63,293 nt of DNA from a virus (lineage: Duplodnaviria; Caudoviricetes), in the IMG/VR virus record IMGVR_UViG_3300025875_000021, positions 1 through 63,293 of that record; one strand, given 5' to 3'. The notes beneath the pieces are model-generated. The model did no database searches. It was not told where the DNA came from and worked only from the letters and a program-made list of their open reading frames with translations. Made by a program: the position numbers and the translations under genes. This document shows positions 1-62,626 of the stretch, in pieces (position 1 is the stretch's first letter; the number at the start of each line of letters is the position of its first letter).

Positions 1-127
1 ACCGAGCAGGAGTTCGCATCGGCATCGCCGGCGTACAAGCAGGTCGCGTTCAGCTGGAAGATGCAGGGTAAGTAGTTCTCGCGAGATATTCATGCCCTAT
101 AACGAGAACCCACCACTCTGATCGAAA
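1..127. repeat. Terminal overlap, identical to 63167-63293 (circular assembly)
   Basis: accgagcagg...gatcgaaa occurs at both ends; 127 bp equals a common assembler k-mer; it cuts through gene 62627-63241. Confidence 0.95.
79..111 (+). promoter_or_regulatory. Conserved phage promoter-like motif
   Basis: TCGCGAgatattcatgcccTATAACgagaaccc; same motif as 10 other intergenic copies. Confidence 0.85.
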
Positions 128-16811: not shown

Positions 16812-16828
16812 TCGGTGAGGTGGGGTTC

Positions 16829-16862
16829 TCGCGAGAATTACAAGGGCTATAATGAGAACCCC
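16829..16862 (+). promoter_or_regulatory. Conserved phage promoter-like motif
   Basis: TCGCGAgaattacaagggcTATAATgagaacccc. Confidence 0.85.
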
Positions 16863-16881
16863 ACCCCATTTGGAGAATCCC

Positions 16882-17046
16882 ATGAACAAGACCATCAAGA
16901 CCGCCAGCCAGACTGCTGTCGTCTTCGTCGCCACCTCACTCGCCCTCACGGCCTACAACACCGTGAAGAACGAGATGGCCAGCCGCGAAGATGCCCGTAA
17001 GTTCTACGCTGCGCTCCCCGCCACGTCTCGCCGGATCACCAACTAG
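16882..17046 (+). CDS. Small cassette protein with a hydrophobic segment
   Basis: RBS ggag then ATG 16882. Confidence 0.75.
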   Translation: MNKTIKTASQTAVVFVATSLALTAYNTVKNEMASREDARKFYAALPATSRRITN

Positions 17047-17059
17047 CACTCAGTTCCCC

Positions 17060-17091
17060 AGACTCAGAGACCCCACAAGGTCTCTCAGTCT
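17060..17091 (+). terminator. Cassette-end hairpin (CCACAA loop)
   Basis: agactcagagaccccacaaggtctctcagtct, identical to 60591-60622. Confidence 0.75.
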
Positions 17092-17099
17092 CAGCGTCC

Positions 17100-17134
17100 T
17101 CGCGAAATTTTCATGGCCTCTAATGAGAACCCCC
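17100..17134 (+). promoter_or_regulatory. Conserved phage promoter-like motif
   Basis: TCGCGAaattttcatggccTCTAATgagaacccc. Confidence 0.85.
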
Positions 17135-20261: not shown

Positions 20262-21491
20262 GTGGATGCTTCGGACCCGAGGTACCTCAATGAGCAGCAG
20301 CGGAAAGCCGTATCCGAGCTGGACAACGGAAAGATCCTTTTTGGAGATGTTGGGTCTGGGAAGACCCGTACCGCGGTCGCTTATTACCTACAACAGGAGG
20401 CGCCTAGAGACGTCTACGTCATCACCACAGCCAAGAAAAGAGACAGCCTAGACTGGGAGCACGACTTCGTAGTCAACGGCGTTTACAAGTCAACTGAGAC
20501 CACTGCACAGGGTATCCTGACGGTCGACAGTTGGAACAATGTAGACAAGTACCGCAACGTGCACGGAGCATTCTTCATATTCGACGAGCAGAGATTGGTT
20601 GGATCAGGTGCCTGGACAAAAGCCTTCCTCAAGATTGCAAAGCGCAACCACTGGATTCTCCTTACTGCCACTCCCGGGGACACTTGGCTTGAGTACATCC
20701 CGGTATTCGTTGCAAACGGCTTCTATGCGAACCGAACTCAGTTCAAGCGAGAGCACGTCATCTACTCTCCTTACTCCAAGTTCCCCAAAGTCGACCGTTA
20801 CGTGGGTACTGGCAAACTGGTCCGACAACGCAATGCACTTCTCGTTGAAATGCCTGTTGCTCGCCATACGACGCGGATGGCTCACCGAGTCCGAGTGGAG
20901 TATGATGCGGATCTGATGAAGCGGGTGGTGAACGACCTCTGGCATATCTATGAGGACCGCCCCCTGAATGACAGAGCAGAGCTGTACTCGGTGTCCCGCA
21001 GGATTGCCTACTCCGATCCGAGCCGTCTTGCGGAGGTTCGGGCTGTGTTGCGGGAGCGGCCGAGGCTTATTGTGTTCTACAACTTCGACTACGAACTGGA
21101 GATTCTCCGTGGACTCAGTGACGATTCAACACTGGAAGTGGCAGAATGGAACGGTCACAAACACCAAGCACTTCCTACCTCAGGTCGATGGGTGTACCTC
21201 GTGCAGTACACCGCGGGTGCAGAGGGATGGAATTGTACGACGACTGATGCGACTCTTTTCTACTCACTGAACTACTCGTACAAGATCACCCACCAGGCAC
21301 ACGGGCGAATTGACCGACTCAACACGCCGTTTACGGACCTGCACTACTACACCCTGAGGAGTGATGCGTGGATCGACAAGGCCGTTTGGCGAGCCTTGAC
21401 TGGTAAGAAGAGCTTCAACGAGGGTGCTTTTGCCCGAAAAGTGCCTCGAATTGCCTCTCTACCTGTCAAGTCTGCCAAAAACGAGGCCTAA
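20262..21491 (+). CDS. SF2 (SNF2-like) DNA helicase
   Basis: [36 protein letters not shown]. Confidence 0.9.
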
Positions 21492-21597
21492 AACCTTTCC
21501 CAGAATGGTCTATAAAATACCATTAATGGAAACATGGTATTTTGTAGAGCCTCTAGAGAGTTTTTTCCGTCATAAATCTTGGCAAGATCGGAGTCTC

Positions 21598-22098
21598 ATG
21601 AACTGGAGCAAAATCGAGGAGTTCGCCGACTACAGTGTGAGTGATGAGGGACTGATACGAAGCGACCGCTACGAGCGGTTTCGCAACATATCTCGCACAG
21701 CACAGGGTGCTGCTAAGGTCACCCTCTTCAAGGAAGACCAGGCGTTCACCAGGTCGGTCGCACTACTGGTCGCTACTGCCTTCGTCTGGAACGATTACGA
21801 TCCAGCTATATTCAACACCCCAATCCATCTGAACAACGACCTCATGGACAACCGTGCATGCAACCTAGCCTGGCGTCCTCGATGGTTCGCACTCAAGTAC
21901 CAGAAGCAGTACTACTCAGAGCACTACCGTTTCGCTACCACTCGAGTGGTGGACATTGAGACGGGAATCTGCTATCGCAACCTAGTAGAGCCCTGCCAGG
22001 AGTTCGGGGTTCTGTACGTGGACGTACTCAGGGCCTGCACATCAGGAGGGTATGTGTTCCCTACATGGAAGGAATTCGTATACGGTCCAAAAGACTAA
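21598..22098 (+). CDS. NUMOD4/HNH homing-endonuclease-like protein
   Basis: WSKIEEF..YSVSDEG, VALLVATAFV, IHLNNDLMDNRACNLAW. Confidence 0.8.
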   Translation: MNWSKIEEFADYSVSDEGLIRSDRYERFRNISRTAQGAAKVTLFKEDQAFTRSVALLVATAFVWNDYDPAIFNTPIHLNNDLMDNRACNLAWRPRWFALKYQKQYYSEHYRFATTRVVDIETGICYRNLVEPCQEFGVLYVDVLRACTSGGYVFPTWKEFVYGPKD

Positions 22099-22110
22099 AG
22101 TGGTAAGAGT

Positions 22111-22140
22111 ACGTGCTCAATACATGGCCTATAATAGAAG
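22111..22140 (+). promoter_or_regulatory. Divergent copy of the promoter motif, upstream of the nuclease-RNAP operon
   Basis: ACGTGCtcaatacatggccTATAATagaag; same 13-nt spacing and catggcc core. Confidence 0.65.
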
Positions 22141-22182
22141 GGGGAAGATCAAGCCTTCTCATTTTCAGCCTTTGGAGGGGCC

Positions 22183-22485
22183 GTGTCACTCGAAAGTGAT
22201 TACCAACTGGATTTGAAGAAGAGGATCGAGACCGTTATTTTGCCAGGCTCGGTTGTACTAAAGAACGATGCCAACTGGCGACAGGGTATTCCAGATCTGA
22301 CTGTGCTATGGCGCAGGCACTGGGGTATCCTTGAGGTCAAGATCAACGCAAGGGCTCCGTATCGACCAAACCAGGAATGGTATCTGGAGAAGTTCGACGG
22401 TATGTCCTTCTCGGCTACAATCTACCCCGAGAATGAAGAGGAGGTTCTCCGTGCGCTTGAACAGGCATTCCGAGCTCGCAGGTAG
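22183..22485 (+). CDS. VRR-NUC / PD-(D/E)XK nuclease
   Basis: ESDYQ, QGIPDL, LEVK, RPNQEWYL. Confidence 0.8.
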   Translation: MSLESDYQLDLKKRIETVILPGSVVLKNDANWRQGIPDLTVLWRRHWGILEVKINARAPYRPNQEWYLEKFDGMSFSATIYPENEEEVLRALEQAFRARR

Positions 22486-23014
22486 ACACGCCTTCATGAG
22501 CGCTAGTAGTGGCGCTTGGCTGAACTACGATGACGAAAAGCTCGAGCGAGTCTATATTGCTAAGATGGCGGCCCAACGGGGAACCGACCTGCATGCCTGG
22601 GCTGCTGAGACGATTCGTCTTGGCGTGCGTCAGGCTGAGAACGGTACCACCCTGAATCTTTACGTCAACGACTGTATCGGATTCAAGATGAATCCCGAGC
22701 AGCCAGTAGCATATTCACGTAACGCGTTCGGTACTGCAGATGCTCTGGGTTTTAGGCAGAACATCCTTCGGATCTTTGATCTCAAGACTGGGGTCATCGC
22801 AGTTACCAAGCCGCGTCAACTCGAGATCTACGCCGCATATTTCTGCCTCGAATACGAGGTGAGTCCGTTTGATCTCGATGAGATCGATCTCCGGATCTAC
22901 CAGAGCGATGAGTGTAAGTCATGGGCCGCTAACCCCATGGATATTCATCTGATCATGCAGCAGGTAGTACACAAGGACAAGATCATCGAGAAGCAGCGGG
23001 AGGAGTTGGAGTGA
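22451..23014 (+). CDS. RecB/Cas4-like PD-(D/E)XK exonuclease
   Basis: GTG 22451 after gaggagg; GTDLHAWA, FGTADA, IFDLKTG, QLEIYA. Confidence 0.8.
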   Translation: MRLNRHSELAGRHAFMSASSGAWLNYDDEKLERVYIAKMAAQRGTDLHAWAAETIRLGVRQAENGTTLNLYVNDCIGFKMNPEQPVAYSRNAFGTADALGFRQNILRIFDLKTGVIAVTKPRQLEIYAAYFCLEYEVSPFDLDEIDLRIYQSDECKSWAANPMDIHLIMQQVVHKDKIIEKQREELE

Positions 23015-25764
23015 TCCTTACTGAGGACCAGCTCGCGCACTACGGCATTCTTCGGAAGTCAGGACGATATCCTTGGGGATCTGGTGGTCCTGAGGAGGCT
23101 AGCAACGCAGGCTTCTTGGGGCTGATCGACAAGCTCAAGAAGGAAGGTCTCACGGAGCCTGAGATCGCCAAGTACCTGTCCACTGACGAGCACCCAGTTA
23201 CGACCACTTCTCTTCGTGCAGCAAAGTCAATTGCAACCAACGAAGAGCGTGCTTCCCGTATCGCTCAGGTTCAGCGGATGCACGACAAGGGTATGTCTAA
23301 TGGCGCCATCGCAGAGCGACTCGGTATTGCGAACGAGTCCTCAGTTAGGTCCCTCCTGCAGGCAGGAGCCCAGGACAAGGCTGACCAGCTCCAGTCTGTT
23401 GCTTCCATGCTCGAGCGCCAAGTGGCAGACAAGCAGTTTGTCGATATTGGTACTGGTGTAGCCCAGCAGCTCGGTCTTTCAGAGTCTCGTCTCGCTACTG
23501 CGGTTGAGATTCTTAAGCAGAAGGACTACACTGTCCAAAACGTTCAGGTAGATCAGGTTGGCATGGGCCCTGGGAACAAGACCACGGTCAAGGTGCTAGC
23601 CCCTCCTGGTACGACCTATCGCGATATTGTGACTCAGAAGGACAAGATCTCACAGATCAACGAGTTCTCTGATGACGGTGGTCGCACCATGAAGCTTATG
23701 CAGCCTCCTATGAGTATCGACTCAAAGCGGGTTGCAGTCAAGTACGGCGAGGACGGCGGAGACAAGGCTGACGGTGTCATCTACGTTCGCCCAGGCGTTG
23801 ATGATATTTCAATCGGCGCTAACCGCTATGCTCAGGTACGCATTGCGGTTGATGGTACTCACTTCCTGAAGGGTATGGCCGTCTACAAGGACGACCTTCC
23901 TGACGGTGTGGACCTGATGTTCAACACCAACAAGAGCAACAAGGGCGACAAGCTTGCAGCCATGAAGCCTATGAAGGCGGAAGAAGACAATCCGTTCGGT
24001 GCCATGGTTAGACAGCGTCTCGGCCCGGACGGTAAGCCAAACTCCGTGATGAACATCGTCGGCATCAAGGAAGGCTCAGGTGAGGAAGGCGCTTGGGAGA
24101 TGTGGTCTAAGAACCTGTCTACCCAGATGCTTTCTAAGCAGAGCCCCCAGCTGATCAGGGAACAGCTGGATATCACGTATGAGCGAAAGAAGCGAGAGCT
24201 TGATGAAATTCGAGCTCTAACGAACCCGACTGTTCGTACAAAGCTTCTCGATTCCTTCGCTGATGGCGCTGACTCTGCAGCTGTGCACCTCAAGGCTGCA
24301 GCTCTGCCACGTCAGTCGACTCGCGTTATTCTTCCCGGAGCCTCGGTCAAGGACAACGAGATCTACGCTCCTGGTTTCAAGAACGGTGAGCGTGTCGTTC
24401 TGATCCGATATCCTCACGCGGGTGTGTTCGAGGTTCCCGAGCTAACGGTAAATAACCGTAATCGTGAAGGCCTCAACACGATTGGCAAGGATGCCAAGGA
24501 CGCGGTCTTGATTAACCACAAGACGGCTCAGAAGATGTCTGGTGCCGACTTCGATGGCGATACGGTCATTGTTATTCCAAACAACAATGGCAAGATTCGT
24601 ACAGCACCCGCACTCCAGGGACTCAAGGGCTTCGATCCTCAGCGCGCATATCCTGCGTACGATGGAATGAAGACGATGGGTGGCGGAAAGTGGGACGCAG
24701 CCAAGGGACGTGAGGTATATCCTGAAGGCAAGGGTCCCTCTGGTAGGACCAAGGGCATGCAGATGGGCATGGTATCCAACCTTATCACGGATATGACGAT
24801 CCGTGGTGCTAGCATGGAGGAAATGGCACGAGCTGTTCGTCACTCCATGGTGGTCATCGATGCTGAGAAGCACTCGCTGAACTGGAAGGAATCGGCCAAG
24901 GCAAACGGTATATCTGCCCTGACCGCAAAATATCAGCCCCGTGATGACGGTCGTACCACAGGTGGTGCATCAACCCTTATATCTAGGGCTGGTTCTGAGA
25001 CGAGGATTGATAAGCGTCGGCTTCGTCCTGCCCAAGATGGCGGTCCTGTTGACTCAATGACAGGCAAGAAGGTGTACGTCAACACCGGTGAGTCATATCA
25101 GGATAAGCAGGGACGCACGGTCATGCGTAAGGAGTCCATCGAGAAGCTGGCCCTAACGGATGACGCACGCACCTTATCTTCGGGTACTGTGCAGGAGACT
25201 GCTTACGCTACCCACAGCAACCGACTCAAGGCCCTGGCTAACGAGGCACGTAAGGAGACCCTGGGGGTGCCGCGTGTTCCTTACTCCCCCTCTGCTAAGA
25301 AGACGTATGCTGCTGAGGTCGAGGCTCTGAATGCCAAGCTGAATACGGCTATCCGGAACCGCCCCCTCGAACGACAGGCCCAGGTCCTGGCAAGCACCCA
25401 GGTGCAGCTGAAGCGGCAGTCTAATCCAGACATGGATAGGGCTACAGTGAAGAAGGTCGAGACCATGGCCCTCACTGAGGCCCGTCTTCGTACCGGTGCA
25501 CAGCGTCAGCTCATCGACATCACAGAGAACGAATGGAAGGCCATTCAGGCTGGTGCTATTACCAATGCCAAGCTAGAGGCCATCCTACAGAAGGCAGACC
25601 TAGACCAGGTCAAGCAGTATGCCATGCCACGTGAGGCACCTGTGATGTCTAGTTCTATGGCTACTAGGGCACGCAGTATGTCTAAGTCTGGGTATGATCA
25701 GGCTGAGATTGCTGAGGCTCTTGGTGTGTCACTCACTACTCTGAAGACCAGTCTCGCTGACTGA
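23011..25764 (+). CDS. Putative single-chain two-barrel (DPBB) RNA polymerase with HTH domains
   Basis: FLKGM, LIRYPH (RYP at 24406), MSGADFDGD (DFDGD at 24547-24561), GMVSNLITD..HSMVVIDAEK; HTH-like segments at both termini. Confidence 0.75.
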   Translation: MILTEDQLAHYGILRKSGRYPWGSGGPEEASNAGFLGLIDKLKKEGLTEPEIAKYLSTDEHPVTTTSLRAAKSIATNEERASRIAQVQRMHDKGMSNGAIAERLGIANESSVRSLLQAGAQDKADQLQSVASMLERQVADKQFVDIGTGVAQQLGLSESRLATAVEILKQKDYTVQNVQVDQVGMGPGNKTTVKVLAPPGTTYRDIVTQKDKISQINEFSDDGGRTMKLMQPPMSIDSKRVAVKYGEDGGDKADGVIYVRPGVDDISIGANRYAQVRIAVDGTHFLKGMAVYKDDLPDGVDLMFNTNKSNKGDKLAAMKPMKAEEDNPFGAMVRQRLGPDGKPNSVMNIVGIKEGSGEEGAWEMWSKNLSTQMLSKQSPQLIREQLDITYERKKRELDEIRALTNPTVRTKLLDSFADGADSAAVHLKAAALPRQSTRVILPGASVKDNEIYAPGFKNGERVVLIRYPHAGVFEVPELTVNNRNREGLNTIGKDAKDAVLINHKTAQKMSGADFDGDTVIVIPNNNGKIRTAPALQGLKGFDPQRAYPAYDGMKTMGGGKWDAAKGREVYPEGKGPSGRTKGMQMGMVSNLITDMTIRGASMEEMARAVRHSMVVIDAEKHSLNWKESAKANGISALTAKYQPRDDGRTTGGASTLISRAGSETRIDKRRLRPAQDGGPVDSMTGKKVYVNTGESYQDKQGRTVMRKESIEKLALTDDARTLSSGTVQETAYATHSNRLKALANEARKETLGVPRVPYSPSAKKTYAAEVEALNAKLNTAIRNRPLERQAQVLASTQVQLKRQSNPDMDRATVKKVETMALTEARLRTGAQRQLIDITENEWKAIQAGAITNAKLEAILQKADLDQVKQYAMPREAPVMSSSMATRARSMSKSGYDQAEIAEALGVSLTTLKTSLAD

Positions 25765-25783: not shown

Positions 25784-26050
25784 ATGCAAGAACACATGCT
25801 CAGCACTATCGACAATCCTTACAATCCATTCACTCAGTTCGATGAGTGGTTTGCTTTCGATACACGAAGTGGTTACAACACTTGTGGATTGTTAGCACGG
25901 ATTGCCGTCACCTCGGACGATCTGTCTGATGGTGATCAATCCTTGGCCTACGAGCAGGCTGTCAACGAGATTATGGAGTTCAACGTCACTGGCATGTTCA
26001 TCAGGGTGACACCGGACTACGTGCCTCGTGTGAGACTTGCTGCAGTGTGA
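25784..26050 (+). CDS. Conserved hypothetical protein following the RNAP-like gene
   Basis: MLSTIDNPYNPFTQFDEW..GYNTCGLLARIA; strong RBS. Confidence 0.8.
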   Translation: MQEHMLSTIDNPYNPFTQFDEWFAFDTRSGYNTCGLLARIAVTSDDLSDGDQSLAYEQAVNEIMEFNVTGMFIRVTPDYVPRVRLAAV

Positions 26051-26086
26051 GTTCTAGGTAATCCGCTGCAGTCGTAGGTTACAAAC

Positions 26087-26130
26087 ACAGACCAACCGAA
26101 CCCAACTTCCCTGGGGTTCGGTTGGTCTGT
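26087..26130. terminator. Perfect 17-bp inverted repeat ending the early/middle operon
   Basis: acagaccaaccgaaccc / gggttcggttggtctgt. Confidence 0.7.
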
Positions 26131-26200
26131 CATAACAACTAAACATGGACTCTTAATTTTTGCGCGGAAACTTTCAGAGTCTCGAAGTTCAAAGAGGGGG

Positions 26201-26275
26201 GAGGGGGGTCCCCGCGAAACCGGACCCCCCTCTGCATCGCCGCCCCGATCCATATTTCCCCGGGGGTCATATTTG
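26201..26275. other. Candidate cos / packaging-start region
   Basis: Non-coding gap before small terminase and HNH; 11-bp IR 26201-26232; CGCCGCCCC at 26238-26246; CATATTT twice. Confidence 0.55.
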
Positions 26276-26340
26276 AGCAAAAGTTTCATGATCATCGGGC
26301 CGGGAAGGTAGGGGGAAGTCCCTGGAAAGGAGTTAGAACT

Positions 26341-26700
26341 GTGCCAGCCAGGCGAGTAAACGATCAGAACGATGTCGCAACACTTCGGCCTGCGGCCACT
26401 ACTCCTCAGCGTAGAGAGAATCAGCTCACTGAACTAGCCTGGGAGCTAGCAGAGAAGCAGATTCGCGATGGAACGGCCTCCGCACAGGTGATTTCTCACT
26501 TCCTCAAGATGGGCTCGAGTCGAGAGCAGCTTGAGCAGCAGAGATTGCGCCACGAGAACGAGCTAACCCAAGCCAAGATCGCTGGTATGGCCGCTGTCGA
26601 GCGCATCGAGCAGAAGTACGACGCCGCACTGAAGGCTATGCGCCGTTATTCAGGTCAGGACGAACCAGAGGCGGAGCCAGTCACTGAGGAGTACCAGTGA
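26341..26700 (+). CDS. Putative terminase small subunit
   Basis: First gene of the late arm; RENQL..LA..LAEKQIRDGTASAQVI; call is positional. Confidence 0.55.
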   Translation: MPARRVNDQNDVATLRPAATTPQRRENQLTELAWELAEKQIRDGTASAQVISHFLKMGSSREQLEQQRLRHENELTQAKIAGMAAVERIEQKYDAALKAMRRYSGQDEPEAEPVTEEYQ

Positions 26701-27104
26701 TTCGAGTTTACAGAGAGCTACGACGCCGGGAGACCTTTGAGGACCGGTTTGAGTACTTGAAACTAAGCGGCGACGTCGGTAGATCCACATTCGGATTCGA
26801 TCGACACATCAATCAGCGGTTCTATCGGTCAAGGCAGTGGAAGCAGGTCCGACAGTACGTCATTGCAAGAGATCTAGGTCTTGACCTTGGCGTTGACGGC
26901 TATGAGATCCACACTGAGATCTTGATTCACCACATGAATCCGATTTCTGCTCAAGACATCATGCAAGGTGACGAGTCGATCCTCGATCCCGAGTTCCTCA
27001 TCACCACAACGCACAAAACCCACAATGCTATTCACTACGGCGACGCCAGCCTCCTTCCGGGGCTTGTTGTCGAACGCCGACCGGGAGATACCCGGCTCTG
27101 GTGA
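26697..27104 (+). CDS. HNH endonuclease (packaging-associated)
   Basis: FYRSRQWKQVR..RD, IHHMNP, THKTHNAIH. Confidence 0.85.
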   Translation: MIRVYRELRRRETFEDRFEYLKLSGDVGRSTFGFDRHINQRFYRSRQWKQVRQYVIARDLGLDLGVDGYEIHTEILIHHMNPISAQDIMQGDESILDPEFLITTTHKTHNAIHYGDASLLPGLVVERRPGDTRLW

Positions 27105-28949: not shown

Positions 28950-29513
28950 ATGTCACTTCAGACCCGCATTGCCGATCTCGTCACAGCGATCGGTACTGAC
29001 ATCAAGCAGCTCCGCGTCTGGACCACGGGCTCTGCCAGTGGTTCTCTGACCGGTCTGACTACGACCACCAAGACCGACATCGTCTCGGCCATTAACGAGG
29101 TCAACGCCAAGCCCGTCGGTAACACTCCGGGTACAGCGACCGAGACTCAGCAGGGTATCGTCGAGCTTGCAACACTCGCCGAGGTCGCCACAGGTACTGA
29201 CGCTACTCGAGCGGTAACGGCAGCGGGTGTTAGGCAGGAGCGCCTGGCCCTTAAGACGGAGATTCTAGGCGTCAACGTCCCGGCGGCTCTCGACACTCTC
29301 GACGAGCTTGCTCAGTCAATTGGGGACAACGCCGACTTTGCTGGGGCAACGACTGCGGCCCTTGGGAATCGGCTTCGGATCGACGTCAGCAACCAGGCAC
29401 TGACCACAGCACAGCAGGTGAACGGTCAGACCAACCTCAACGTCTACAGCAAGACGGAGATCGGCAATCCTGAGACCGATCTCGTCGCTGTCTACGCCAC
29501 TGCGAAGGCGTGA
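28950..29513 (+). CDS. Virion fibre/adaptor protein
   Basis: LTTTTKTDIVSAINEV, ATETQQGIVELAT, PAALDTLDELA fibre motifs. Confidence 0.7.
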   Translation: MSLQTRIADLVTAIGTDIKQLRVWTTGSASGSLTGLTTTTKTDIVSAINEVNAKPVGNTPGTATETQQGIVELATLAEVATGTDATRAVTAAGVRQERLALKTEILGVNVPAALDTLDELAQSIGDNADFAGATTAALGNRLRIDVSNQALTTAQQVNGQTNLNVYSKTEIGNPETDLVAVYATAKA

Positions 29514-35682: not shown

Positions 35683-36219
35683 ATGGACGATAATCTGAAG
35701 GACACCATGGACGCCGGCGAGGACTTCCTCGAGCACTTCGGCGTCAAGGGCATGAAGTGGGGTGTTCGTCGGGACCTGGATCGAATTCGATCTGTTGCCA
35801 CGAAGAGCCACGAGATGGGTTTGGTTGGTAAGCGTCAAAAGGTCAAGGCTGAAGGCGTGCCCTCCAAGCGTCAGCAGAAGAAGATCGACAAGGCAGAGTA
35901 CAAGGACTGGCGAAAGGACGCCATGGGCACTGAGAAGGCCAACAAGGCTTTCCAGGACGCCGCCAAGTCCTTTGACAAGCCGCTCAAGGCGATTAACAAT
36001 GACCCGGCGTTCAAGGGGAAGGATCTCGATGCTCCCGAAAACCGTCGGCTCAGAAAGACGTATGACGAGGTTGTTTCTGAGGTGTTCAATGAGCACCTCG
36101 CTCAGGCTTCGATCAATCTGACGTACAACCCCAAGACCGAGCGGGCGGTCATCTATCGGTTCGACAGTAATGTCGGCATGATGAAGGCAACGGAGGTGAA
36201 GGCACAGTGGGAGGACTAG
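35683..36219 (+). CDS. Basic protein with HFGxKGMKWGVRR motif (1)
   Basis: TMDAGEDFLEHFGVKGMKWGVRR; RBS ggaggtg. Confidence 0.8.
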   Translation: MDDNLKDTMDAGEDFLEHFGVKGMKWGVRRDLDRIRSVATKSHEMGLVGKRQKVKAEGVPSKRQQKKIDKAEYKDWRKDAMGTEKANKAFQDAAKSFDKPLKAINNDPAFKGKDLDAPENRRLRKTYDEVVSEVFNEHLAQASINLTYNPKTERAVIYRFDSNVGMMKATEVKAQWED

Positions 36220-58416: not shown

Positions 58417-58804
58417 CGGCGATATTGCCAGCATGATCGTTGCGCTCATTGCGGCGTATGGTGCATACGCAGCACACAGAGCTTCGGGTAAGGCTACGGC
58501 TGCACAAGCCAGCACAACGGCGGATGCCAACACGGCTATAGCCCGAACAAATGCGGAGGAGCAGGCTTACGTGCGTGCTCGTAAGTTCGACAGCGACACC
58601 ATTGAGCGACAGGATCGAGAACTGGACGAGCTTAGAGAGTCAAACCGCCTCAAGGAGGAGGAGCTTAAGTTGCTTCGGCCTCTGGTCGAGGAAGTTCGAA
58701 TCCTTCGTGCACGAGTTCAAAGACTTGAGCGAAACCTCACATCTCACGAAAAGGAGCCCAATGACGACCAACACGACCGCCACGTCCCCCTTCCTTCCGA
58801 GTAG
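58406..58804 (+). CDS. TM plus coiled-coil protein (lysis region)
   Basis: N-terminal TM, heptad-rich C-terminus. Confidence 0.7.
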   Translation: MLDSGDIASMIVALIAAYGAYAAHRASGKATAAQASTTADANTAIARTNAEEQAYVRARKFDSDTIERQDRELDELRESNRLKEEELKLLRPLVEEVRILRARVQRLERNLTSHEKEPNDDQHDRHVPLPSE

Positions 58805-59138: not shown

Positions 59139-59142
59139 CACC

Positions 59143-59175
59143 TCGCGAAGGATACACGGGCTATAATGAGACCCC
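59143..59175 (+). promoter_or_regulatory. Conserved phage promoter-like motif
   Basis: TCGCGAaggatacacgggcTATAATgagacccc. Confidence 0.85.
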
Positions 59176-59195
59176 TAACCCTTGAGGAGAACGCC

Positions 59196-59489
59196 ATGTT
59201 CAAGCACAAGACCCACACCGAGACCCCTCGTGTCGAGACGGTCATCGACCTCCTGCTCTACAAGATGGAGACCCACACAGACCCCAGCTCCGCTGAGTAC
59301 GCCAAGATGGTGGACCAGTACGTCAAGCTCCAGGGCGCGAAGGTGCACACCGCACACAAGCCCCTGGACCGCAACGCACTGCTCGCCATCGCCGGCAACC
59401 TCATCGGCATCGGGATCATCGTGGGTCACGAACGAGCACACGTCGTGACCTCCAAGGCACTCGGTTTCATCGGTAAGGTCACCACCTGA
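59196..59489 (+). CDS. Cassette protein
   Basis: RBS gaggag; GNLIGIGIIVGHERAHVVTSKALGF. Confidence 0.8.
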   Translation: MFKHKTHTETPRVETVIDLLLYKMETHTDPSSAEYAKMVDQYVKLQGAKVHTAHKPLDRNALLAIAGNLIGIGIIVGHERAHVVTSKALGFIGKVTT

Positions 59490-59519
59490 TCCGCACAACC
59501 TCCAGCTAGGACCACCAAG

Positions 59520-59568
59520 CGCAGAGGGCGTGTACGAGAGATATTCCAACTCGTACACGCCCTCTGCG
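59520..59568. terminator. Perfect 19-bp inverted repeat
   Basis: cgcagagggcgtgtacgag / ctcgtacacgccctctgcg followed by ttt. Confidence 0.75.
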
Positions 59569-59598
59569 TTTGTCCTACATGGGCTATCAATTTTTGCC

Positions 59599-59632
59599 TC
59601 GCGAGAAGTACAAGGCCTCTAATGAGAACCCC
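59599..59632 (+). promoter_or_regulatory. Conserved phage promoter-like motif
   Basis: TCGCGAgaagtacaaggccTCTAATgagaacccc. Confidence 0.85.
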
Positions 59633-59654
59633 ACCCTCTATTGAAGGAGTCCCC

Positions 59655-59921
59655 ATGAAGAAGATCATCGCAGCCGCAGCGGTCACTGGCTTCGTCATCT
59701 GGGCCGTCCCAGCCGCCGTTGCTGGCTTCGTGGACGGACTCTCAGAGCAGCTTGCTCCCCGCTTCCCGGACGTCGACCTCGACACCATCCGGATCGTGTA
59801 CCGCAAGTTCCTCTGGAAGTCCTTCACGGGCCAGCTGCCCGACCTGGACGACCTGGACGACGACGCCATGGACACGCTGTTCCGCGTCGAACTCTTCAAC
59901 TACCTCGCCAACAAGAAGTAA
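59655..59921 (+). CDS. Cassette protein, N-terminal hydrophobic
   Basis: RBS aaggag. Confidence 0.8.
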   Translation: MKKIIAAAAVTGFVIWAVPAAVAGFVDGLSEQLAPRFPDVDLDTIRIVYRKFLWKSFTGQLPDLDDLDDDAMDTLFRVELFNYLANKK

Positions 59922-59928
59922 GTTCCAG

Positions 59929-59957
59929 CACTCAGAGCCCCACAAGGGCTCTAAGTG
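59929..59957 (+). terminator. Cassette-end hairpin (CCACAA-type loop)
   Basis: cactcagagccc-cacaa-gggctctaagtg. Confidence 0.7.
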
Positions 59958-59963
59958 TCACTC

Positions 59964-59996
59964 TCGCGTGATATTCATGGCCTCTAATGAGAACCC
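59964..59996 (+). promoter_or_regulatory. Conserved phage promoter-like motif
   Basis: TCGCGTgatattcatggccTCTAATgagaaccc. Confidence 0.85.
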
Positions 59997-60013
59997 AACA
60001 TCGAGGAGTAGCT

Positions 60014-60247
60014 ATGAAGCTGTTTCAGAACAAGGCACTCTCGCTGACTGTCACCAACAACCCCCAGCCCCCCACCGACTCTTCTGAGCCGGCAACGTCC
60101 AAACGCGTGGATGCAGACGCGATCGCCCAGATCGCCATGTACCACGCGAACCACGCTGCCGCGCTCATATCTGCGGTGTACGTGGGCCGGAAGGTCGTCA
60201 ACACTGCCTGCGAGATCGCCATCATCGCCGCCAACAAGCGCCTCTAG
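60014..60247 (+). CDS. Cassette protein
   Basis: RBS gaggag. Confidence 0.8.
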   Translation: MKLFQNKALSLTVTNNPQPPTDSSEPATSKRVDADAIAQIAMYHANHAAALISAVYVGRKVVNTACEIAIIAANKRL

Positions 60248-60256
60248 TAGTTCCAC

Positions 60257-60285
60257 GACCGAGAGCCCCACAAGGGCTCTTAGTC
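60257..60285 (+). terminator. Cassette-end hairpin (CCACAA-type loop)
   Basis: gaccgagagccc-cacaa-gggctcttagtc. Confidence 0.7.
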
Positions 60286-60286
60286 T

Positions 60287-60320
60287 TCGCGATATATTCA
60301 TGGCCTATAATGAGAACCCC
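60287..60320 (+). promoter_or_regulatory. Conserved phage promoter-like motif
   Basis: TCGCGAtatattcatggccTATAATgagaacccc. Confidence 0.85.
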
Positions 60321-60343
60321 ACCCAGAATTCAAGGAGATCCCC

Positions 60344-60580
60344 ATGAACAGCAGCCTCAAGACTGAGATCGTTGCCATGGCCATCCGCCAGCTTTCGCCC
60401 ACCTCCAAGACCCACAACTCCAGCGCCTCGTTCGACTCGTTCTTCTCCGTCCTCGTGACGGGCAAGACCGTCGAGCAGGCGCAGGCCGAGCAGATCGTCG
60501 AGGTGATCGAGAACGGCGTGAAGGCCGTGAAGACCCTCATCACTCGCCGCCACTTCAACAAGATCGTCAAGAACATCTGA
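60344..60580 (+). CDS. Cassette protein
   Basis: RBS aaggag. Confidence 0.8.
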   Translation: MNSSLKTEIVAMAIRQLSPTSKTHNSSASFDSFFSVLVTGKTVEQAQAEQIVEVIENGVKAVKTLITRRHFNKIVKNI

Positions 60581-60590
60581 CCCATCTCAC

Positions 60591-60622
60591 AGACTCAGAG
60601 ACCCCACAAGGTCTCTCAGTCT
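60591..60622 (+). terminator. Cassette-end hairpin (CCACAA loop)
   Basis: Identical to 17060-17091. Confidence 0.75.
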
Positions 60623-60628
60623 AAGCGT

Positions 60629-60660
60629 TCGCGAAAAATTCATGGTCTCTAATGAGAACC
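60629..60660 (+). promoter_or_regulatory. Conserved phage promoter-like motif
   Basis: TCGCGAaaaattcatggtcTCTAATgagaacc. Confidence 0.85.
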
Positions 60661-60685
60661 ATCAACCCTCTATGAAGGAGACCCC

Positions 60686-60880
60686 ATGAACACTGCCGTC
60701 GTCAAGACCGCTGCTGTCACCGTCAAGAACTTCGCCACCGCACACCCCACCGCCACCGCAGCAGCCGCCAACGCCGCTTCCGCTGTCGCCGGGTACACCG
60801 CGGCCGGCATCGTCCTGAAGGTCCAGCGCCGTCGCGCCGTCAAGAACGTCATGAAGTCCGCCACCTCGCAGAAGATCTAG
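60686..60880 (+). CDS. Ala-rich cassette protein
   Basis: RBS aaggag. Confidence 0.8.
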   Translation: MNTAVVKTAAVTVKNFATAHPTATAAAANAASAVAGYTAAGIVLKVQRRRAVKNVMKSATSQKI

Positions 60881-60885
60881 TTCCG

Positions 60886-60924
60886 AGCTGAGAGCCCCCG
60901 TCACCAAGACATGGGCTTTCAGTT
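60886..60924 (+). terminator. Cassette-end hairpin
   Basis: agctgagagccc...gggctttcagtt. Confidence 0.6.
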
Positions 60925-60930
60925 TGTCTC

Positions 60931-60964
60931 TCGCGACATATTCATGGCCTCTAATGAGAACCCC
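60931..60964 (+). promoter_or_regulatory. Conserved phage promoter-like motif
   Basis: TCGCGAcatattcatggccTCTAATgagaacccc. Confidence 0.85.
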
Positions 60965-60981
60965 AACCTGAGGAGTACCCC

Positions 60982-61161
60982 ATGAACAACCGCCCCGTCA
61001 CCATCGAGGACGTCAAGGCCATGGACGCCCAGGACCTCACCGCGCTCCAGCGTCAGGCGGCTCGCAACCTCGTCAACTTCGTGTTGATCAAGGTCGCGAT
61101 CGCCGTGACGTGCAGGTACGCGGTCAAGGCCCTAGTCCGACACCTGGACAGCCTCGACTAG
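60982..61161 (+). CDS. 59-aa cassette protein (not in ORF track)
   Basis: RBS gaggag; MNNRPVTIEDVKAMDAQDL...HLDSLD. Confidence 0.75.
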   Translation: MNNRPVTIEDVKAMDAQDLTALQRQAARNLVNFVLIKVAIAVTCRYAVKALVRHLDSLD

Positions 61162-61199
61162 TTCGAGCCGTTCGCTCATATCCCAGCTACCGTTCCAAG

Positions 61200-61223
61200 C
61201 TAAACACCGAACTTGGTGTTTAG
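61200..61223 (+). terminator. Cassette-end hairpin
   Basis: ctaaacacc-gaactt-ggtgtttag. Confidence 0.65.
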
Positions 61224-61231
61224 TCTTTGCC

Positions 61232-61261
61232 TCGCGAATTTTTCATGGCCTGTAATGAGAA
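61232..61261 (+). promoter_or_regulatory. Conserved phage promoter-like motif with no gene directly downstream
   Basis: TCGCGAatttttcatggccTGTAATgagaa. Confidence 0.8.
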
Positions 61262-61387
61262 GAGATCCGCAATGGATTCCGAGACACGACTGAGCAGGTG
61301 AAAACCCTGCCCGGAGTGCCAGTCACAAAAGATAAGACTGGTTAACGAATTGTTATCATTGGACAATTACCTCTTCTCTTGTTTTTT
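61257..61387 (+). ncRNA. Candidate small multibranched RNA
   Basis: 5' gagaagag pairs with 3' ctcttctc; four internal hairpins; T-tract; no RBS or ORF. Confidence 0.6.
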
Positions 61388-61441
61388 CTGAGACACCTAC
61401 CTGGTGTCTAAGCTTTGCCCATATCCCGAGAGGAAGTCGCC

Positions 61442-61621: not shown

Positions 61622-61622
61622 C

Positions 61623-62569: not shown

Positions 62570-62626
62570 GGACTACTGCTCGTAGTACCCGTACATCCCA
62601 CATCCGTCATATCCGAAAGGCACAAC

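What the first reader, a model, noticed from the sequence alone, without database searches (positions are those of the whole stretch)
23011..25764. Cryptic single-chain two-barrel RNA polymerase disguised as an HTH protein
Seen: the 917-aa ORF has, in order, RIAVDGTHFLKGM, VVLIRYPH, MSGADFDGDTV and GMVSNLITD...HSMVVIDAEKH, with HTH-like segments at both ends (GMSNGAIAERLG, GYDQAEIAEALGVS). Known: RxP followed by DxDGD is the Mg-binding double-psi-beta-barrel signature of multisubunit RNAPs, QDE-1-type RdRPs and phage single-chain RNAPs such as SPbeta YonO. The N..D and D..K helices resemble the QDE-1/YonO post-catalytic motif. Inference: a phage-encoded DNA-dependent RNAP whose fused HTHs may replace a sigma factor. 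The HTHs make a plain DNA-binding annotation likely, so the enzyme may be overlooked.
Basis: partly seen in the sequence, partly recalled or inferred. Interest (0 to 1): 0.92.

Follow-up and report, generated by a model that had tools for sequence, protein, structure and literature searches.

The report
Phage two-barrel RNA polymerase with HTH ends
This phage gene very probably encodes a compact single-chain RNA polymerase built like the core of cellular RNA polymerases and flanked by DNA-binding modules; the family was already predicted in print but never tested, and it travels with a conserved promoter-like DNA signal.

Summary
ORF 23011-25764 (+) encodes 917 aa with every quoted motif. RYP and DFDGD are invariant in 147 of 147 diverse relatives. 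Pfam sees only HTH_7 and Sigma70_r4_2 at the two ends.

AlphaFold models are confident: whole protein pLDDT 86.7, core pLDDT 92.1. Their significant PDB matches are single-chain two-barrel polymerases: QDE-1, Thermus phage gp64/gp62 and plant RDR2.

The reading is not new. PHROG 4291 matches full length. Ruprich-Robert & Thuriaux 2010 and Koert et al. 2021 predicted this family, HTH ends and DxDGD included. My searches found no biochemical test. This scan reached the same reading before on other DNA.

A 36-nt tripartite motif has 10 strong copies and one divergent copy, all on the + strand. Relatives from two phyla keep its spacing. A strict form of it, scanned over IMG/VR, led to polymerase-encoding records in 26 of 26 records at least 90% complete. 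No copy fits sigma-70 spacing. The motif is probably this enzyme's promoter, but that is inferred. Virion delivery is only hinted.

Verdict: new member of a known, untested kind.

The parts
23011..25764 (+). Gene for the 917-aa HTH-flanked single-chain two-barrel RNA polymerase (P0001)
   Evidence: ORF and translation. PHROG 4291 full-length match, 1247 bits, profile positions 8-906 of 909. AF2 model pLDDT 86.7, pTM 0.76. Foldseek: QDE-1 E 4e-9, P74 gp62 E 7.5e-7, RDR2.
23011..23109 (+). Conserved but disordered N-terminal peptide (residues 1-33, family consensus LxHYGxxRxSGRYPWGSG)
   Evidence: pLDDT below 50 for residues 1-33. S17, G18 and R19 are invariant; H10, G12, Y20, G23, S24 and G25 are at least 90% conserved. 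It weakly resembles the DUF7211 motif of two head-region proteins. Its function is unknown.
23113..23433 (+). N-terminal helical DNA-binding region with HTH (residues 35-141)
   Evidence: Pfam HTH_7 at 79-107 above its cut-off; HTH_23 reaches its cut-off of 24.6 bits, and HTH_38 and GerE fall below theirs. Helices 35-44, 49-56, 65-92, 97-104, 109-116 and 118-141.
23731..24060 (+). First beta-barrel (residues about 241-350), the beta/Rpb2-like DPBB, with invariant Q275, R277, K287, G288
   Evidence: Strands 241-244, 256-259, 273-280, 284-292, 302-305, 333-337 and 343-350. Invariant residues. Core model pLDDT 92.1. The assignment to DPBB-B rests on order and the Foldseek matches; no residue-level superposition was made.
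24316..24579 (+). Second beta-barrel (residues about 436-523), the beta-prime/Rpb1-like DPBB, with R466-Y-P468 and the D513-F-D-G-D517 metal loop
   Evidence: Strands 436-442, 450-452, 461-465, 477-480, 498-501 and 518-523. All five key residues are invariant in 147 of 147. PF05183 (RdRP) hits nt 24520-24588 only, 12.9 bits, below its cut-off. Local Foldseek matches to beta-prime and NRPD1 barrels, rmsd 2.5-3.4 A over 114-145 columns.
24745..24873 (+). Two long conserved helices after the catalytic barrel (residues 579-621) with invariant N590, D594, D617, K620
   Evidence: Helices 579-597 and 602-621. Invariance. Equivalence to the bridge-helix and trigger-loop region of QDE-1 and gp64 is inferred from position (paper passages).
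25651..25758 (+). C-terminal HTH (residues 881-916), sigma-70 region-4-like
   Evidence: Pfam Sigma70_r4_2 at 894-915, 28.8 bits against a cut-off of 25.7; HTH_24. Helices 881-892, 897-904 and 908-916.
22331..23014 (+). Upstream Cas4/RecB-like exonuclease gene, overlapping the polymerase start; a conserved neighbour
   Evidence: PHROG 3953, E 1.8e-65. An exonuclease or Cas4-family nuclease gene lies directly before the polymerase gene in RosaAsantewaa, Gordon and FP_oengus.
25784..26050 (+). Small conserved downstream gene (PHROG 4303), followed by a 290-nt gap that probably holds the genome ends
   Evidence: PHROG 4303, E 7.7e-36. A small gene follows the polymerase gene as the last gene before the record's end in RosaAsantewaa, Gordon and 1706; its homology to PHROG 4303 was not checked there.
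59142..61266 (+). Array of 7 copies of the 36-nt promoter-like motif, starting at 59142, 59598, 59963, 60286, 60628, 60930 and 61231
   Evidence: Six of the seven are followed within about 10-25 nt by a ribosome site and ATG; 61231 is not. Four of the seven follow a hairpin. No sigma-70-type site was found in 58500-63293.
16828..17134 (+). Two more motif copies (16828, 17099), heading the block that runs through the helicase and exonuclease genes to the polymerase gene
78..113 (+). Motif copy (the same bases as 63244-63279 in the 127-bp terminal repeat)
22110..22141 (+). Divergent motif copy about 900 nt upstream of the polymerase gene. It keeps TACA-N5-TATAAT-AGAA; the upstream element reads ACGTGC where the consensus has TCGCGA.
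Evidence: 10.8 bits with a matrix built only from other genomes. Sequence read.

Best explanation
The gene encodes a single-chain RNA polymerase of the two-barrel (double-psi beta-barrel) superfamily. A beta-like barrel (about residues 241-350) and a beta-prime-like barrel (about 436-523) form one active site. D513, D515 and D517 hold the catalytic Mg2+ there, and R466/P468 and K287/R277 line the site.

The catalytic core is flanked by helix-turn-helix modules: at least one at the N-terminus and a sigma-region-4-like one at the C-terminus.

[quoted passage not shown] It would start at a conserved about 30-bp tripartite promoter: TCGCGA, 4 nt, TWCA, 5 nt, TATAAT-like, then GAGA. The window holds 10 strong copies and one divergent copy of this promoter. 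The HTH modules would read the two upstream elements in place of a sigma factor.

Shown:
- the motifs and their invariance;
- the predicted fold;
- family membership;
- the motif, its polarity and its co-inheritance with the gene.

Inferred:
- RNA synthesis and the DNA template;
- that this protein, and not host RNA polymerase with a phage factor, reads the motif;
- that the HTHs do the reading;
- whether the enzyme arrives in the virion.

My odds:
- two-barrel polymerase fold with a live active site, about 0.93;
- DNA-dependent transcription of phage genes, about 0.8;
- reads the motif, about 0.55;
- virion-delivered, about 0.35.
For: Fold:
- Whole-protein model, pLDDT 86.7, pTM 0.76. The 10 PDB matches with E <= 0.001, and row 11, are QDE-1, P74 gp62 and RDR2.
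- Core model (residues 235-660), pLDDT 92.1, pTM 0.87. All 25 PDB matches with E <= 0.001 are QDE-1 (E 1.8e-10, TM 0.48-0.53), phage gp64 and gp62 (TM 0.44-0.47) and RDR2. Local matches to beta-prime, Rpb1 and NRPD1 barrels follow.
- BFVD matches include P23-45 gp64 and viral proteins named RdRP.

Active site: RxP and DxDGD are invariant in 147 of 147. PF05183 touches only this loop.

Family: PHROG 4291 full length. 249 of 250 matching phage records cover at least 80% of the protein. 868 clusters match at E <= 1e-30.

Precedent: YonO is a processive DNA-dependent RNA polymerase (passages). P23-45 gp64 and gp96 are two-barrel phage polymerases with their own conserved promoters, and the presence of the AT-rich (gp96) motif tracks the TMP-fused polymerase among relatives (passages).

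Promoter-like motif:
- 10 distinct copies score 45-60 bits and nothing lies between 12 and 45 bits. All are on the + strand and shuffles give 0.
- The same architecture and spacing occur in 5 of 5 genomes examined, from Streptomyces, Arthrobacter, Lactococcus and Faecalibacterium phages and the window.
- Independent set: 20 of 24 polymerase-encoding IMG/VR contigs of at least 41 kb have a match. There are 69 matches, all on the polymerase-coding strand, against 1 for the backwards-read control.
- One of the four misses has 8 matrix hits of a variant form.
- Reverse test: 45 of 50 motif-bearing records of at least 34 kb encode the polymerase, and 26 of 26 among records at least 90% complete.
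- In 63 matches outside the strict pattern, unspecified positions are still conserved (T2 in 53 of 63, T21 in 60, T23 in 60, A24 in 54).
- None of the 8 copies listed in 58500-63293 (63244 repeats 78) fits sigma-70 hexamers at 16-18 nt spacing: 0 found, 1.3 expected.

Virion hint: the 1706 homolog orf75 is annotated 'structural protein'.
Against: - My searches found no enzymology for any member of this family.
- Sequence similarity to characterised polymerases is confined to the catalytic loop. PF05183 scores 12.9 bits against a cut-off of 23.8. PDB sequence and profile searches give nothing significant outside the HTHs. hhalign against YonO gives probability 0.6%.
- Foldseek TM-scores are modest (0.3 for the whole protein, about 0.5 for the core), and I had no residue-level superposition. 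The mapping of K287, R277 and D254 onto the beta-subunit invariants is therefore not shown.
- The motif-polymerase association is lineage-wide co-inheritance. It does not say which protein reads the motif.
- The motif's third element is a near-perfect TATAAT in most relatives. That is also what the host primary sigma factor reads.
- No motif copy precedes the late (structural) genes.
- G005, a complete polymerase-encoding genome, has only one weak hit.
- Rare long relatives lack both HTH ends, so the HTHs are not indispensable to the core.
- The 'structural protein' label of 1706 orf75 could not be traced to its data, because that paper is not held.
Confidence: 0.6

Rival explanations
1. The protein is a real two-barrel RNA polymerase but works like YonO. 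It is made as a middle gene and transcribes late genes from a promoter not yet identified. The multi-copy motif is instead read by host RNA polymerase: its primary sigma factor recognises the TATAAT-like element, and a phage factor bound at the upstream TCGCRA/TWCA elements replaces -35 recognition, as at T4 MotA-dependent middle promoters (the T4 comparison is recalled, not from a call).
For: - The third element is TATAAT-like in most genomes.
- The polymerase gene lies at the end of the replication block, downstream of motif copies at 16828, 17099 and 22110. Its own expression therefore seems to depend on the motif.
- YonO transcribes late genes (passages).
- No motif copy precedes the late genes, so they need some other signal anyway.
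Against: - The position matching the -11 A of a sigma-70 -10 element is not conserved in the window (C or G in 7 of 10 copies) or in RosaAsantewaa.
- No copy has a -35-like hexamer at 16-18 nt.
- The upstream elements keep identical spacing in phages of Lactococcus, Faecalibacterium and Actinobacteria. That calls for a conserved phage-encoded reader, and the calls here annotated no other DNA-binding protein shared across the group; Koert et al. call the polymerase a possible signature gene of this group.
- I found no separate conserved activator, but I did not search for one systematically.
Confidence: 0.25
2. It is an RNA-dependent RNA polymerase, as PHROG 4291 and some RefSeq records name it, and it copies phage or host RNA.
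For: The PHROG and RefSeq names. The best structural matches are QDE-1 and plant RDR2, which are RdRPs.
Against: - The name derives from the Pfam RdRP family, which it matches only at the shared catalytic loop and below the cut-off (Koert passages).
- QDE-1 also has DNA-dependent activity (abstract of PMC9508822 in the listing).
- The bacterial and phage relatives that have been tested (YonO, gp64, gp96) copy DNA.
- It sits in a dsDNA phage, carries DNA-binding HTHs and travels with a co-inherited DNA motif.
Confidence: 0.04
3. It makes RNA for replication rather than for gene expression, for example primers or origin-opening transcripts.
For: The gene lies in the replication module next to helicase and Cas4-like exonuclease genes.
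Against: The phage already encodes a 1239-aa primase-polymerase: PHROG 4210 full length, with primase families matching residues about 120-430. The many oriented motif copies, each before a ribosome site and ORF, look like promoters and not origins.
Confidence: 0.06
4. It is only an HTH DNA-binding regulator whose polymerase-like core is inactive.
For: The annotation of most records. The HTH matches are the only ones above Pfam cut-offs.
Against: Every metal-binding and flanking residue is invariant across 147 representatives of clusters at 50% identity. A dead active site would not keep that.
Confidence: 0.02

Closest known systems
HTH-flanked 'putative RNA polymerase' of the actinophage supercluster and of Lactococcus phage 1706 / Faecalibacterium phage FP_oengus (PHROG 4291; Koert et al. 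2021; the '1706' family of YonO-like proteins in Ruprich-Robert & Thuriaux 2010)
   Same: Full-length homology: 56% identity to Streptomyces phage RosaAsantewaa gp54, 50% to Arthrobacter phage Gordon gp88, 42% to FP_oengus, 38% to 1706 orf75. It shares HTHs at both ends, DxDGD, the position after a Cas4-like exonuclease gene near the right genome end, and the same promoter-like motif.
   Different: Nothing of kind. This is a groundwater-metagenome member, at most 64% identical to any protein found. Its motif variant has TCGCGA and mostly TTCA and TCTAAT, where most relatives have TCGCAA, TACA and TATAAT.
Neurospora crassa QDE-1 (PDB 2J7N, 7Y7x) and plant RDR2
   Same: Best structural matches (E 1.8e-10, TM about 0.5 on the core). 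Single chain, with the beta-like barrel before the beta-prime-like barrel, and a DxDGD loop.
   Different: They are eukaryotic silencing enzymes, 13% identical, without HTH modules. They act on RNA or single-stranded DNA without promoters.
Thermus phage P23-45 gp64 / P74-26 gp62 non-virion RNA polymerase (PDB 8F72, 8F5M)
   Same: A phage single-chain two-barrel DNA-dependent RNA polymerase with its own conserved promoter motif (passages). Structural match E 6e-9 to 8e-9, TM 0.44-0.47.
   Different: About 600 aa, and no HTH ends are mentioned ('helix-turn-helix' occurs 0 times in that preprint). 14-15% identity. A GC-rich promoter. The partner virion polymerase there is fused to the tape measure protein.
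Bacillus prophage SPbeta YonO
   Same: A roughly 100-kDa single-chain two-barrel polymerase of a Gram-positive siphophage, shown to be DNA-dependent and processive. Like this protein, it is touched by PF05183 only below the cut-off (control line).
   Different: No detectable similarity by profile against the single YonO sequence. No fused HTHs are reported. It transcribes late genes as a single operon from the one start site mapped.
crAss-like phage phi14:2 gp66 virion RNA polymerase (PDB 6VR4)
   Same: Two-barrel fold with a DFDxD loop. It is virion-packaged and transcribes early genes (abstract in the listing). That is the model for the virion-delivery reading.
   Different: 2166 residues in the solved chain. 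Only a weak Foldseek match (E 0.075).

Membership tests
Two-barrel (double-psi beta-barrel) RNA polymerase superfamily | Two DPBB domains forming one catalytic core | tested here: met
   AF2 models show two blocks of 6-7 strands. Every PDB match with E <= 0.001 is a single-chain two-barrel polymerase (10 for the whole protein, 25 for the core). These are predicted structures, not solved ones.
Two-barrel (double-psi beta-barrel) RNA polymerase superfamily | Invariant DxDxD metal loop preceded by R-x-P in the beta-prime-like barrel (5 of the 8 universal residues of Ruprich-Robert & Thuriaux) | tested here: met
   R466, P468, D513, D515 and D517 are invariant in 147 of 147. The list of eight residues was read in passages of PMC2919709.
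Two-barrel (double-psi beta-barrel) RNA polymerase superfamily | Two lysines and one aspartate of the beta-like barrel (Rpb2 K979, K987, D837) | tested here: inconclusive
   The first barrel has invariant K287, G288, Q275, R277 and G255 and nearly invariant D254. No residue-level structural alignment was available, because the VIA libraries were not on the machine.
Two-barrel (double-psi beta-barrel) RNA polymerase superfamily | Template-dependent RNA synthesis | not testable with these tools
   Needs purified protein.
PHROG 4291 / HTH-flanked polymerase of the actinophage-1706-oengus group | Full-length homology | tested here: met
   E = 0, 1247 bits, residues 4-916 on profile positions 8-906 of 909. 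249 of 250 phage records cover at least 80%.
PHROG 4291 / HTH-flanked polymerase of the actinophage-1706-oengus group | HTH domains at both termini (Koert et al.) | tested here: met
   Pfam HTH_7 at 79-107 and Sigma70_r4_2 at 894-915, both above their cut-offs.
PHROG 4291 / HTH-flanked polymerase of the actinophage-1706-oengus group | [quoted passage not shown] | tested here: met
Pfam RdRP (PF05183) | Score above the gathering cut-off | tested here: not met
   12.9 bits against 23.8, and only 23 profile positions around DFDGD. Not listed by hmmscan at E <= 1. Koert et al. report HHpred probability 95.7% with an alignment; I could not rerun that.
YonO-like proteins in the narrow sense (SPbeta YonO) | Detectable sequence homology to YonO | tested here: not met
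   hhalign of the 75-row profile against the single YonO sequence gives probability 0.6%. A YonO family profile was not built, so distant homology is not excluded. [quoted passage not shown]
Virion-packaged RNA polymerases (N4, crAss gp66, P23-45 gp96) | The protein is present in virions and ejected | not testable with these tools
   Hints only. The 1706 orf75 label 'structural protein'. One predicted ORF joins a portal domain to the polymerase core.

The most novel reading that the evidence does not exclude
The enzyme is a self-sufficient, sigma-independent two-barrel RNA polymerase. It is packaged in the virion and ejected with the DNA. It reads a 30-bp tripartite promoter through its own fused HTH modules and drives the phage's earliest genes. 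That would make it the smallest known promoter-specific polymerase of the cellular type, spread over hundreds of actinophage and Firmicutes phage lineages.
Probability: 0.3. Interest if true: 0.8.

Novelty: new member of a known kind. Interest (0 to 1): 0.5.

Why it matters
Single-chain relatives of the cellular RNA polymerase core bear on how multisubunit polymerases arose. They are also candidates for small orthogonal transcription systems.

This family is large: 868 clusters at 50% identity match at E <= 1e-30. It is present in at least 250 sequenced phages, many of them isolates that grow on harmless laboratory hosts such as Arthrobacter, Gordonia, Streptomyces and Lactococcus. Most records mislabel it as an HTH protein.

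It also comes with a defined candidate promoter. Whether a two-barrel core with fused HTHs can find promoters without a sigma factor can therefore be tested directly with existing isolates. The idea itself is already in print, so the gain here is confirmation, scale and a sharper experiment, not discovery.

Tried and rejected
- PDB sequence searches with the protein and with the family profile found only HTH look-alikes, plus non-significant hits (E about 2) to a phage beta-prime at the DFDGD loop.
- hhalign against YonO found nothing.
- NCBIfam has no model.
- RNA evidence: the look-up of sequencing runs listed 3 DNA(?) groundwater runs and no RNA holder. Read laying was not used. This says nothing about expression.
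- Literature. Klyczek 2017 and Pope 2017 hold 0 occurrences of 'promoter' or 'RNA polymerase'. Koert et al. holds 0 of 'promoter'. Garneau 2008 on phage 1706 is not held, so its virion proteomics is recalled, not seen. Searches were poorly aimed and gave nothing useful. One search added nothing. Koert's Figure S1 and Ruprich-Robert's Supplementary Data S2 may hold alignments that bear on the beta-barrel residues.
- Fused forms were examined as a possible sign of virion location. P0273 (half a polymerase plus part of a tape measure protein) and P0274 (truncated DNA polymerase plus truncated polymerase) look like assembly or deletion chimeras, and I rejected them. P0175, P0199 and P0272 share a roughly 1050-aa N-terminal extension. 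P0175 and P0199 are each a singleton on one contig; P0272 is likewise listed with one member on one contig. I treat them as a hint only.
- The resemblance of the polymerase N-terminus to DUF7211 is weak: pairwise E 0.044, probability 1.2%, and no Pfam hit.
- Covariation between HTH residues and motif variants (position 6 G or A, position 13 T or A) was considered. I did not run it, because the few variant lineages would be confounded by kinship.

Full report
**What is there.** The window is a complete 63,293-bp phage record from IMG/VR with a terminal repeat. The repeat is 127 bp and identical at both ends (family D5). The longest ORFs, including every gene annotated here, lie on the + strand. 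The DNA is held by groundwater metagenome runs.

ORF 23011-25764 starts with GTG behind a GGAGG-type ribosome site. It overlaps the stop of the upstream gene. RYP is nt 24406-24414 and DFDGD is nt 24547-24561.

**What the databases say.**
- Pfam recognises only the ends: HTH_7 at residues 79-107 and Sigma70_r4_2 at 894-915, both above their curated cut-offs.
- NCBIfam has nothing.
- The Pfam RdRP model PF05183, run against the whole record, touches only nt 24520-24588, the DFDGD loop. It scores 12.9 bits against a cut-off of 23.8. The same model also rings below its cut-off in the Bacillus subtilis control genome.
- PHROG 4291, labelled 'RNA-dependent RNA polymerase', matches from end to end (E = 0, 1247 bits).
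- tblastn finds the protein in 250 sequenced phages, 249 of them over at least 80% of its length: Arthrobacter 95, Gordonia 55, Streptomyces 54, Lactococcus 13 and others.
- Of the 60 rows listed there, 32 are named helix-turn-helix and 3 'DNA binding protein'. Three are named 'RNA-dependent RNA polymerase', one 'putative RNA polymerase' (FP_oengus) and one 'structural protein' (phage 1706 orf75).
The names sources gave to the 120 listed were regulators, a transposase or 'hypothetical'.
- The exhaustive search of 50%-identity representatives gave 2046 clusters at E <= 0.001, 1418 at 1e-10 and 868 at 1e-30. Some of the weakest are probably HTH-only matches.

**Conservation.** I aligned 147 sequences: the window protein plus 146 of the 150 best representatives. 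I left out P0175, P0188, P0199 and P0249 for aberrant length. Invariant residues include R466, P468, D513, D515, G516, D517, Q275, R277, K287, G288, N590, D594, D617 and K620. A 75-row subset gave the same result.

**Structure.**
- The first alignment was too large for the fold server. The 75-row alignment gave a model with mean pLDDT 86.7 and pTM 0.76. Only residues 1-33 and 226-232 are unreliable.
- The secondary structure shows two blocks of beta-strands, at 241-350 and 436-523. The second block carries RYP on a strand and DFDGD in the loop before its last strand. Two long helices follow at 579-621 and hold the N..D and D..K motifs. Helical HTH regions sit at both ends.
- Foldseek against the PDB gave 10 matches with E <= 0.001. 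The first 11 rows are QDE-1 (E 4e-9), P74 gp62, and maize and Arabidopsis RDR2. crAss gp66 (E 0.075) and the large subunits of multisubunit polymerases come next.
- Whole-chain TM-scores were low (0.3). I therefore folded the core alone, residues 235-660: pLDDT 92.1, pTM 0.87.
- All 25 PDB matches of the core with E <= 0.001 are QDE-1 (E 1.8e-10, TM 0.48-0.53), phage gp64 (8F72) and gp62 (8F5M) (TM 0.44-0.47) and RDR2. Below them, Pol IV NRPD1 and bacterial beta-prime align locally at rmsd 2.5-3.4 A over 114-145 columns.
- BFVD gave P23-45 gp64 and viral proteins named RdRP.
- So the criterion 'no two-DPBB fold in the model' is not met either.
- I could not obtain residue-level superpositions, because the VIA libraries were unavailable. 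The equivalence of K287, R277 and D254 with the beta-subunit lysines and aspartate stays inferred.

**What is in print.**
- Passages of Ruprich-Robert & Thuriaux (NAR 2010, PMC2919709) list eight invariant residues of two-barrel polymerases. [quoted passage not shown]
- Passages of Koert et al. (bioRxiv 10.1101/842583) describe exactly this protein family in the actinophage supercluster and the Lactococcus/Faecalibacterium group. They report HTH domains at both ends, an HHpred hit to PF05183 (95.68%) and the DxDGD loop. They conclude it 'could potentially have RNA polymerase activity'.
- Forrest et al. (PMC5467207) showed that YonO is a processive DNA-dependent polymerase for late genes.
- The P23-45 preprint shows two two-barrel phage polymerases, each with its own promoter motif. 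It reports that relatives lacking the TMP-fused virion polymerase also lack the AT-rich motif.
- Six searches found no experimental work on the HTH-flanked family. That is a statement about the held library only.
- Earlier notes of this scan show the same family found on other genomes. Three follow-up reports reached the same reading.

**Context.**
- The gene follows a helicase gene (20262-21491), an HNH gene and a Cas4/RecB-like exonuclease gene (22331-23014).
- After it come small conserved genes, an HNH gene, an endolysin gene, a connector gene and tail-fibre-like genes.
- Further on lie the large terminase gene (36787), the portal gene, the protease-capsid fusion gene, the tail genes and the tape measure gene.
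- In RosaAsantewaa, Gordon and 1706 the polymerase gene is the last but one gene before the right end of the linear genome. In the window, the 290-nt gap at 26050-26341 is therefore probably where the ends lie (inference).

**The promoter-like motif.** I had met it independently.
- The window has 10 distinct copies of about 36 nt: CTCGCGA, 4 nt, TTCA or TACA, TGGCC, TCTAAT or TATAAT, GAGAACCCC.
- They start at 78 (the same bases as 63244), 16828, 17099, 59142, 59598, 59963, 60286, 60628, 60930 and 61231. All are on the + strand.
- Nine are followed within about 10-25 nt by a ribosome site and ATG. Several are preceded by a hairpin.
- A matrix built from them scores 45-60 bits at these sites. 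Nothing else scores above 12 bits on either strand, and 10 shuffles gave none.
- A matrix built only from other genomes also finds a divergent copy at 22110, about 900 nt upstream of the polymerase gene.
- None of the copies in 58500-63293 qualifies as a sigma-70-type promoter: 0 found against 1.3 expected. The distance from the TWCA element to the TATAAT-like element is 5 nt, and from TCGCGA to it 13 nt. A sigma-70 promoter needs 16-18 nt.

**The same architecture in relatives.** All four complete relatives that I examined have multi-copy motifs in the same register: TCGCRA at positions 2-7, TWCA at 12-15, a TnTAnT-like element at 21-26 and purines at 27-30.
- Streptomyces phage RosaAsantewaa has 6 copies.
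- Arthrobacter phage Gordon has at least 9.
- Lactococcus phage 1706 has at least 10, and Faecalibacterium phage FP_oengus at least 12.
- A 28-nt pattern written after seeing these (CRC, N6, TWCA, N9, RT, RRRA) hits 9, 5, 4, 4 and 4 times on the coding strand of the five genomes. It never hits the other strand, and shuffles give 0.02-0.08 per strand.

**Independent tests.** The pattern was post hoc, so I tested it on genomes not used to write it.
- One search returned 80 polymerase-encoding IMG/VR loci. I took the 24 that lie on contigs of at least 41 kb.
- 20 of the 24 have a match. There are 69 matches in all, every one on the strand that encodes the polymerase. The backwards-read control gives 1.
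- At least 2 of the 69 lack the TATAAT-like element and may be chance.
- Of the four genomes without a match, G007 has 8 matrix hits of a variant ending GACA. G005 has only one weak hit. G002 and G018 were not examined further.

**The reverse test.**
- I scanned IMG/VR with a stricter pattern: CGCR, N5, TWCA, N5, TATAATGAGA.
- Of the 50 contigs of at least 34 kb, 45 encode the polymerase at E <= 1e-10. All 26 records at least 90% complete do. The 5 without it are 58-69% complete.
- Four of the 50 were already in the previous set. Some records are probably the isolates already seen; one has Gordon's exact length.
- In the 80 loci the general pattern matches 209 times, always on the strand of the strict matches. 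The backwards control matches 0 times.
- In the 63 matches that are not strict matches, unspecified positions are still conserved: T2 in 53 of 63, T21 in 60, A22 in 42, T23 in 60 and A24 in 54.
- The base rate of the polymerase in IMG/VR is small.

**What this does and does not show.** It shows a strand-specific, intergenic, promoter-like signal with non-sigma-70 spacing. In viral contigs it is essentially restricted to the lineage that carries this polymerase, across hosts from two phyla.

It does not show which protein reads the signal. Kin share both traits, and the third element is a good TATAAT in most relatives, which host primary sigma factors could use. I therefore keep a substantial rival: host polymerase plus a phage activator at the upstream elements, with this enzyme serving late genes as YonO does.

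Two points count against the rival:
- The position that would be the -11 A is not conserved in the window (7 of 10 copies have C or G) or in RosaAsantewaa.
- The upstream elements are conserved from Lactococcus to Streptomyces phages. That calls for a conserved phage reader, and the polymerase with its HTHs is the only such protein seen here, where a separate conserved activator was not searched for systematically.

One point counts for the rival. The polymerase gene itself lies downstream of motif copies. Its synthesis would then need pre-existing enzyme unless the enzyme comes in with the virion.

**Virion delivery.** The only hints are these:
- The label 'structural protein' on 1706 orf75. 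The underlying paper is not held.
- The conserved, disordered N-terminal peptide.
- A few long predicted proteins. P0175 joins a Pfam portal domain (102.7 bits) through about 660 residues to a polymerase core that lacks both HTH ends. P0199 and P0272 share a roughly 1050-aa N-terminal extension that carries a PHROG 8314 domain, and P0175 and P0199 share other linker segments.
- Each of these sits on a single contig.
- Two other long forms look like chimeras.

I give virion delivery about 0.35.

**Comparison and verdict.** The protein is a member of the already described HTH-flanked polymerase family (PHROG 4291; Koert et al.; the 1706 family of Ruprich-Robert & Thuriaux). It works, most likely, like P23-45 gp64 or YonO: a single-chain two-barrel DNA-dependent polymerase with its own promoter.

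Structurally it is nearest to QDE-1. It is not a member of Pfam RdRP by score. It shows no detectable sequence kinship to YonO in the one comparison I ran.

The novelty is that of a new member of a known, still untested kind. What makes it worth a bench test is the family's size, its availability in cultured phages, and the defined candidate promoter.

Noticed in passing
window 35683-36219 and 36207-36776 (+), and 23011-23109: Two adjacent paralogous small genes just upstream of the large terminase gene carry the 25-residue Pfam motif DUF7211 (E 2.9e-13 and 1.2e-11). The same short motif links them to about a dozen otherwise unrelated PHROG families, one labelled virion structural protein. The conserved disordered N-terminus of the polymerase resembles this motif with a 4-residue insertion, but only weakly (hhalign E 0.044; no Pfam hit).
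   Followed up: partly
proteins P0175, P0199, P0272 (database proteins, contigs not seen): Rare ORFs of about 1800 aa in which the polymerase core, lacking both HTH ends, follows an N-terminal extension of about 1050 aa. In P0175 the extension begins with a full Pfam portal domain. P0199 and P0272 carry a PHROG 8314 domain. Each is on one contig only. If real, this would be a portal-linked polymerase.
   Followed up: partly
proteins P0273, P0274: Two long 'fusions' look like assembly or deletion chimeras, since both partners are truncated: half a polymerase plus the C-terminal part of a tape measure protein, and a truncated primase-polymerase plus a truncated polymerase.
   Followed up: yes
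window 61231-61400: The motif copy at 61231 is the only one not followed by a ribosome site and ATG. I did not test this.
   Followed up: no
window 29510-31171 and 31900-33810: Two neighbouring large genes share several 60-117-nt stretches at 71-80% identity, at a constant offset of about 2.6 kb (repeat families D8, D13, D14, D17). That fits a duplicated tail-fibre-like gene. The second has tail-fibre N-terminal PHROG matches and the first has none.
   Followed up: no
window 17060-17098, 59925-59960, 60250-60285, 60590-60627: Hairpins of the type AGAGnCCCCACAAGGnCTCT lie directly upstream of several motif copies. They look like terminators of the preceding cassette, but they lack a T-run and the simple terminator scan does not pick them up. 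Gordon, 1706 and FP_oengus have hairpin-plus-T-run elements at the same place.
   Followed up: partly
window 1-127 and 63167-63293: An exact 127-bp terminal repeat. It is most simply the overlap of a circular assembly, not a physical terminal repeat. Synteny with relatives places the real ends near 26050-26341.
   Followed up: partly
G005 (IMG/VR record behind L022): A complete 61-kb polymerase-encoding genome has only one weak motif hit (20.3 bits). Either its promoter has diverged beyond my matrix, or the link between polymerase and motif is not universal.
   Followed up: partly
window 21424-22098 and 26697-27104: Two HNH endonuclease genes lie on either side of the exonuclease-polymerase pair. 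The second (PHROG 4321) lies near the presumed genome ends, like the HNH gene next to the terminase genes in relatives.
   Followed up: no
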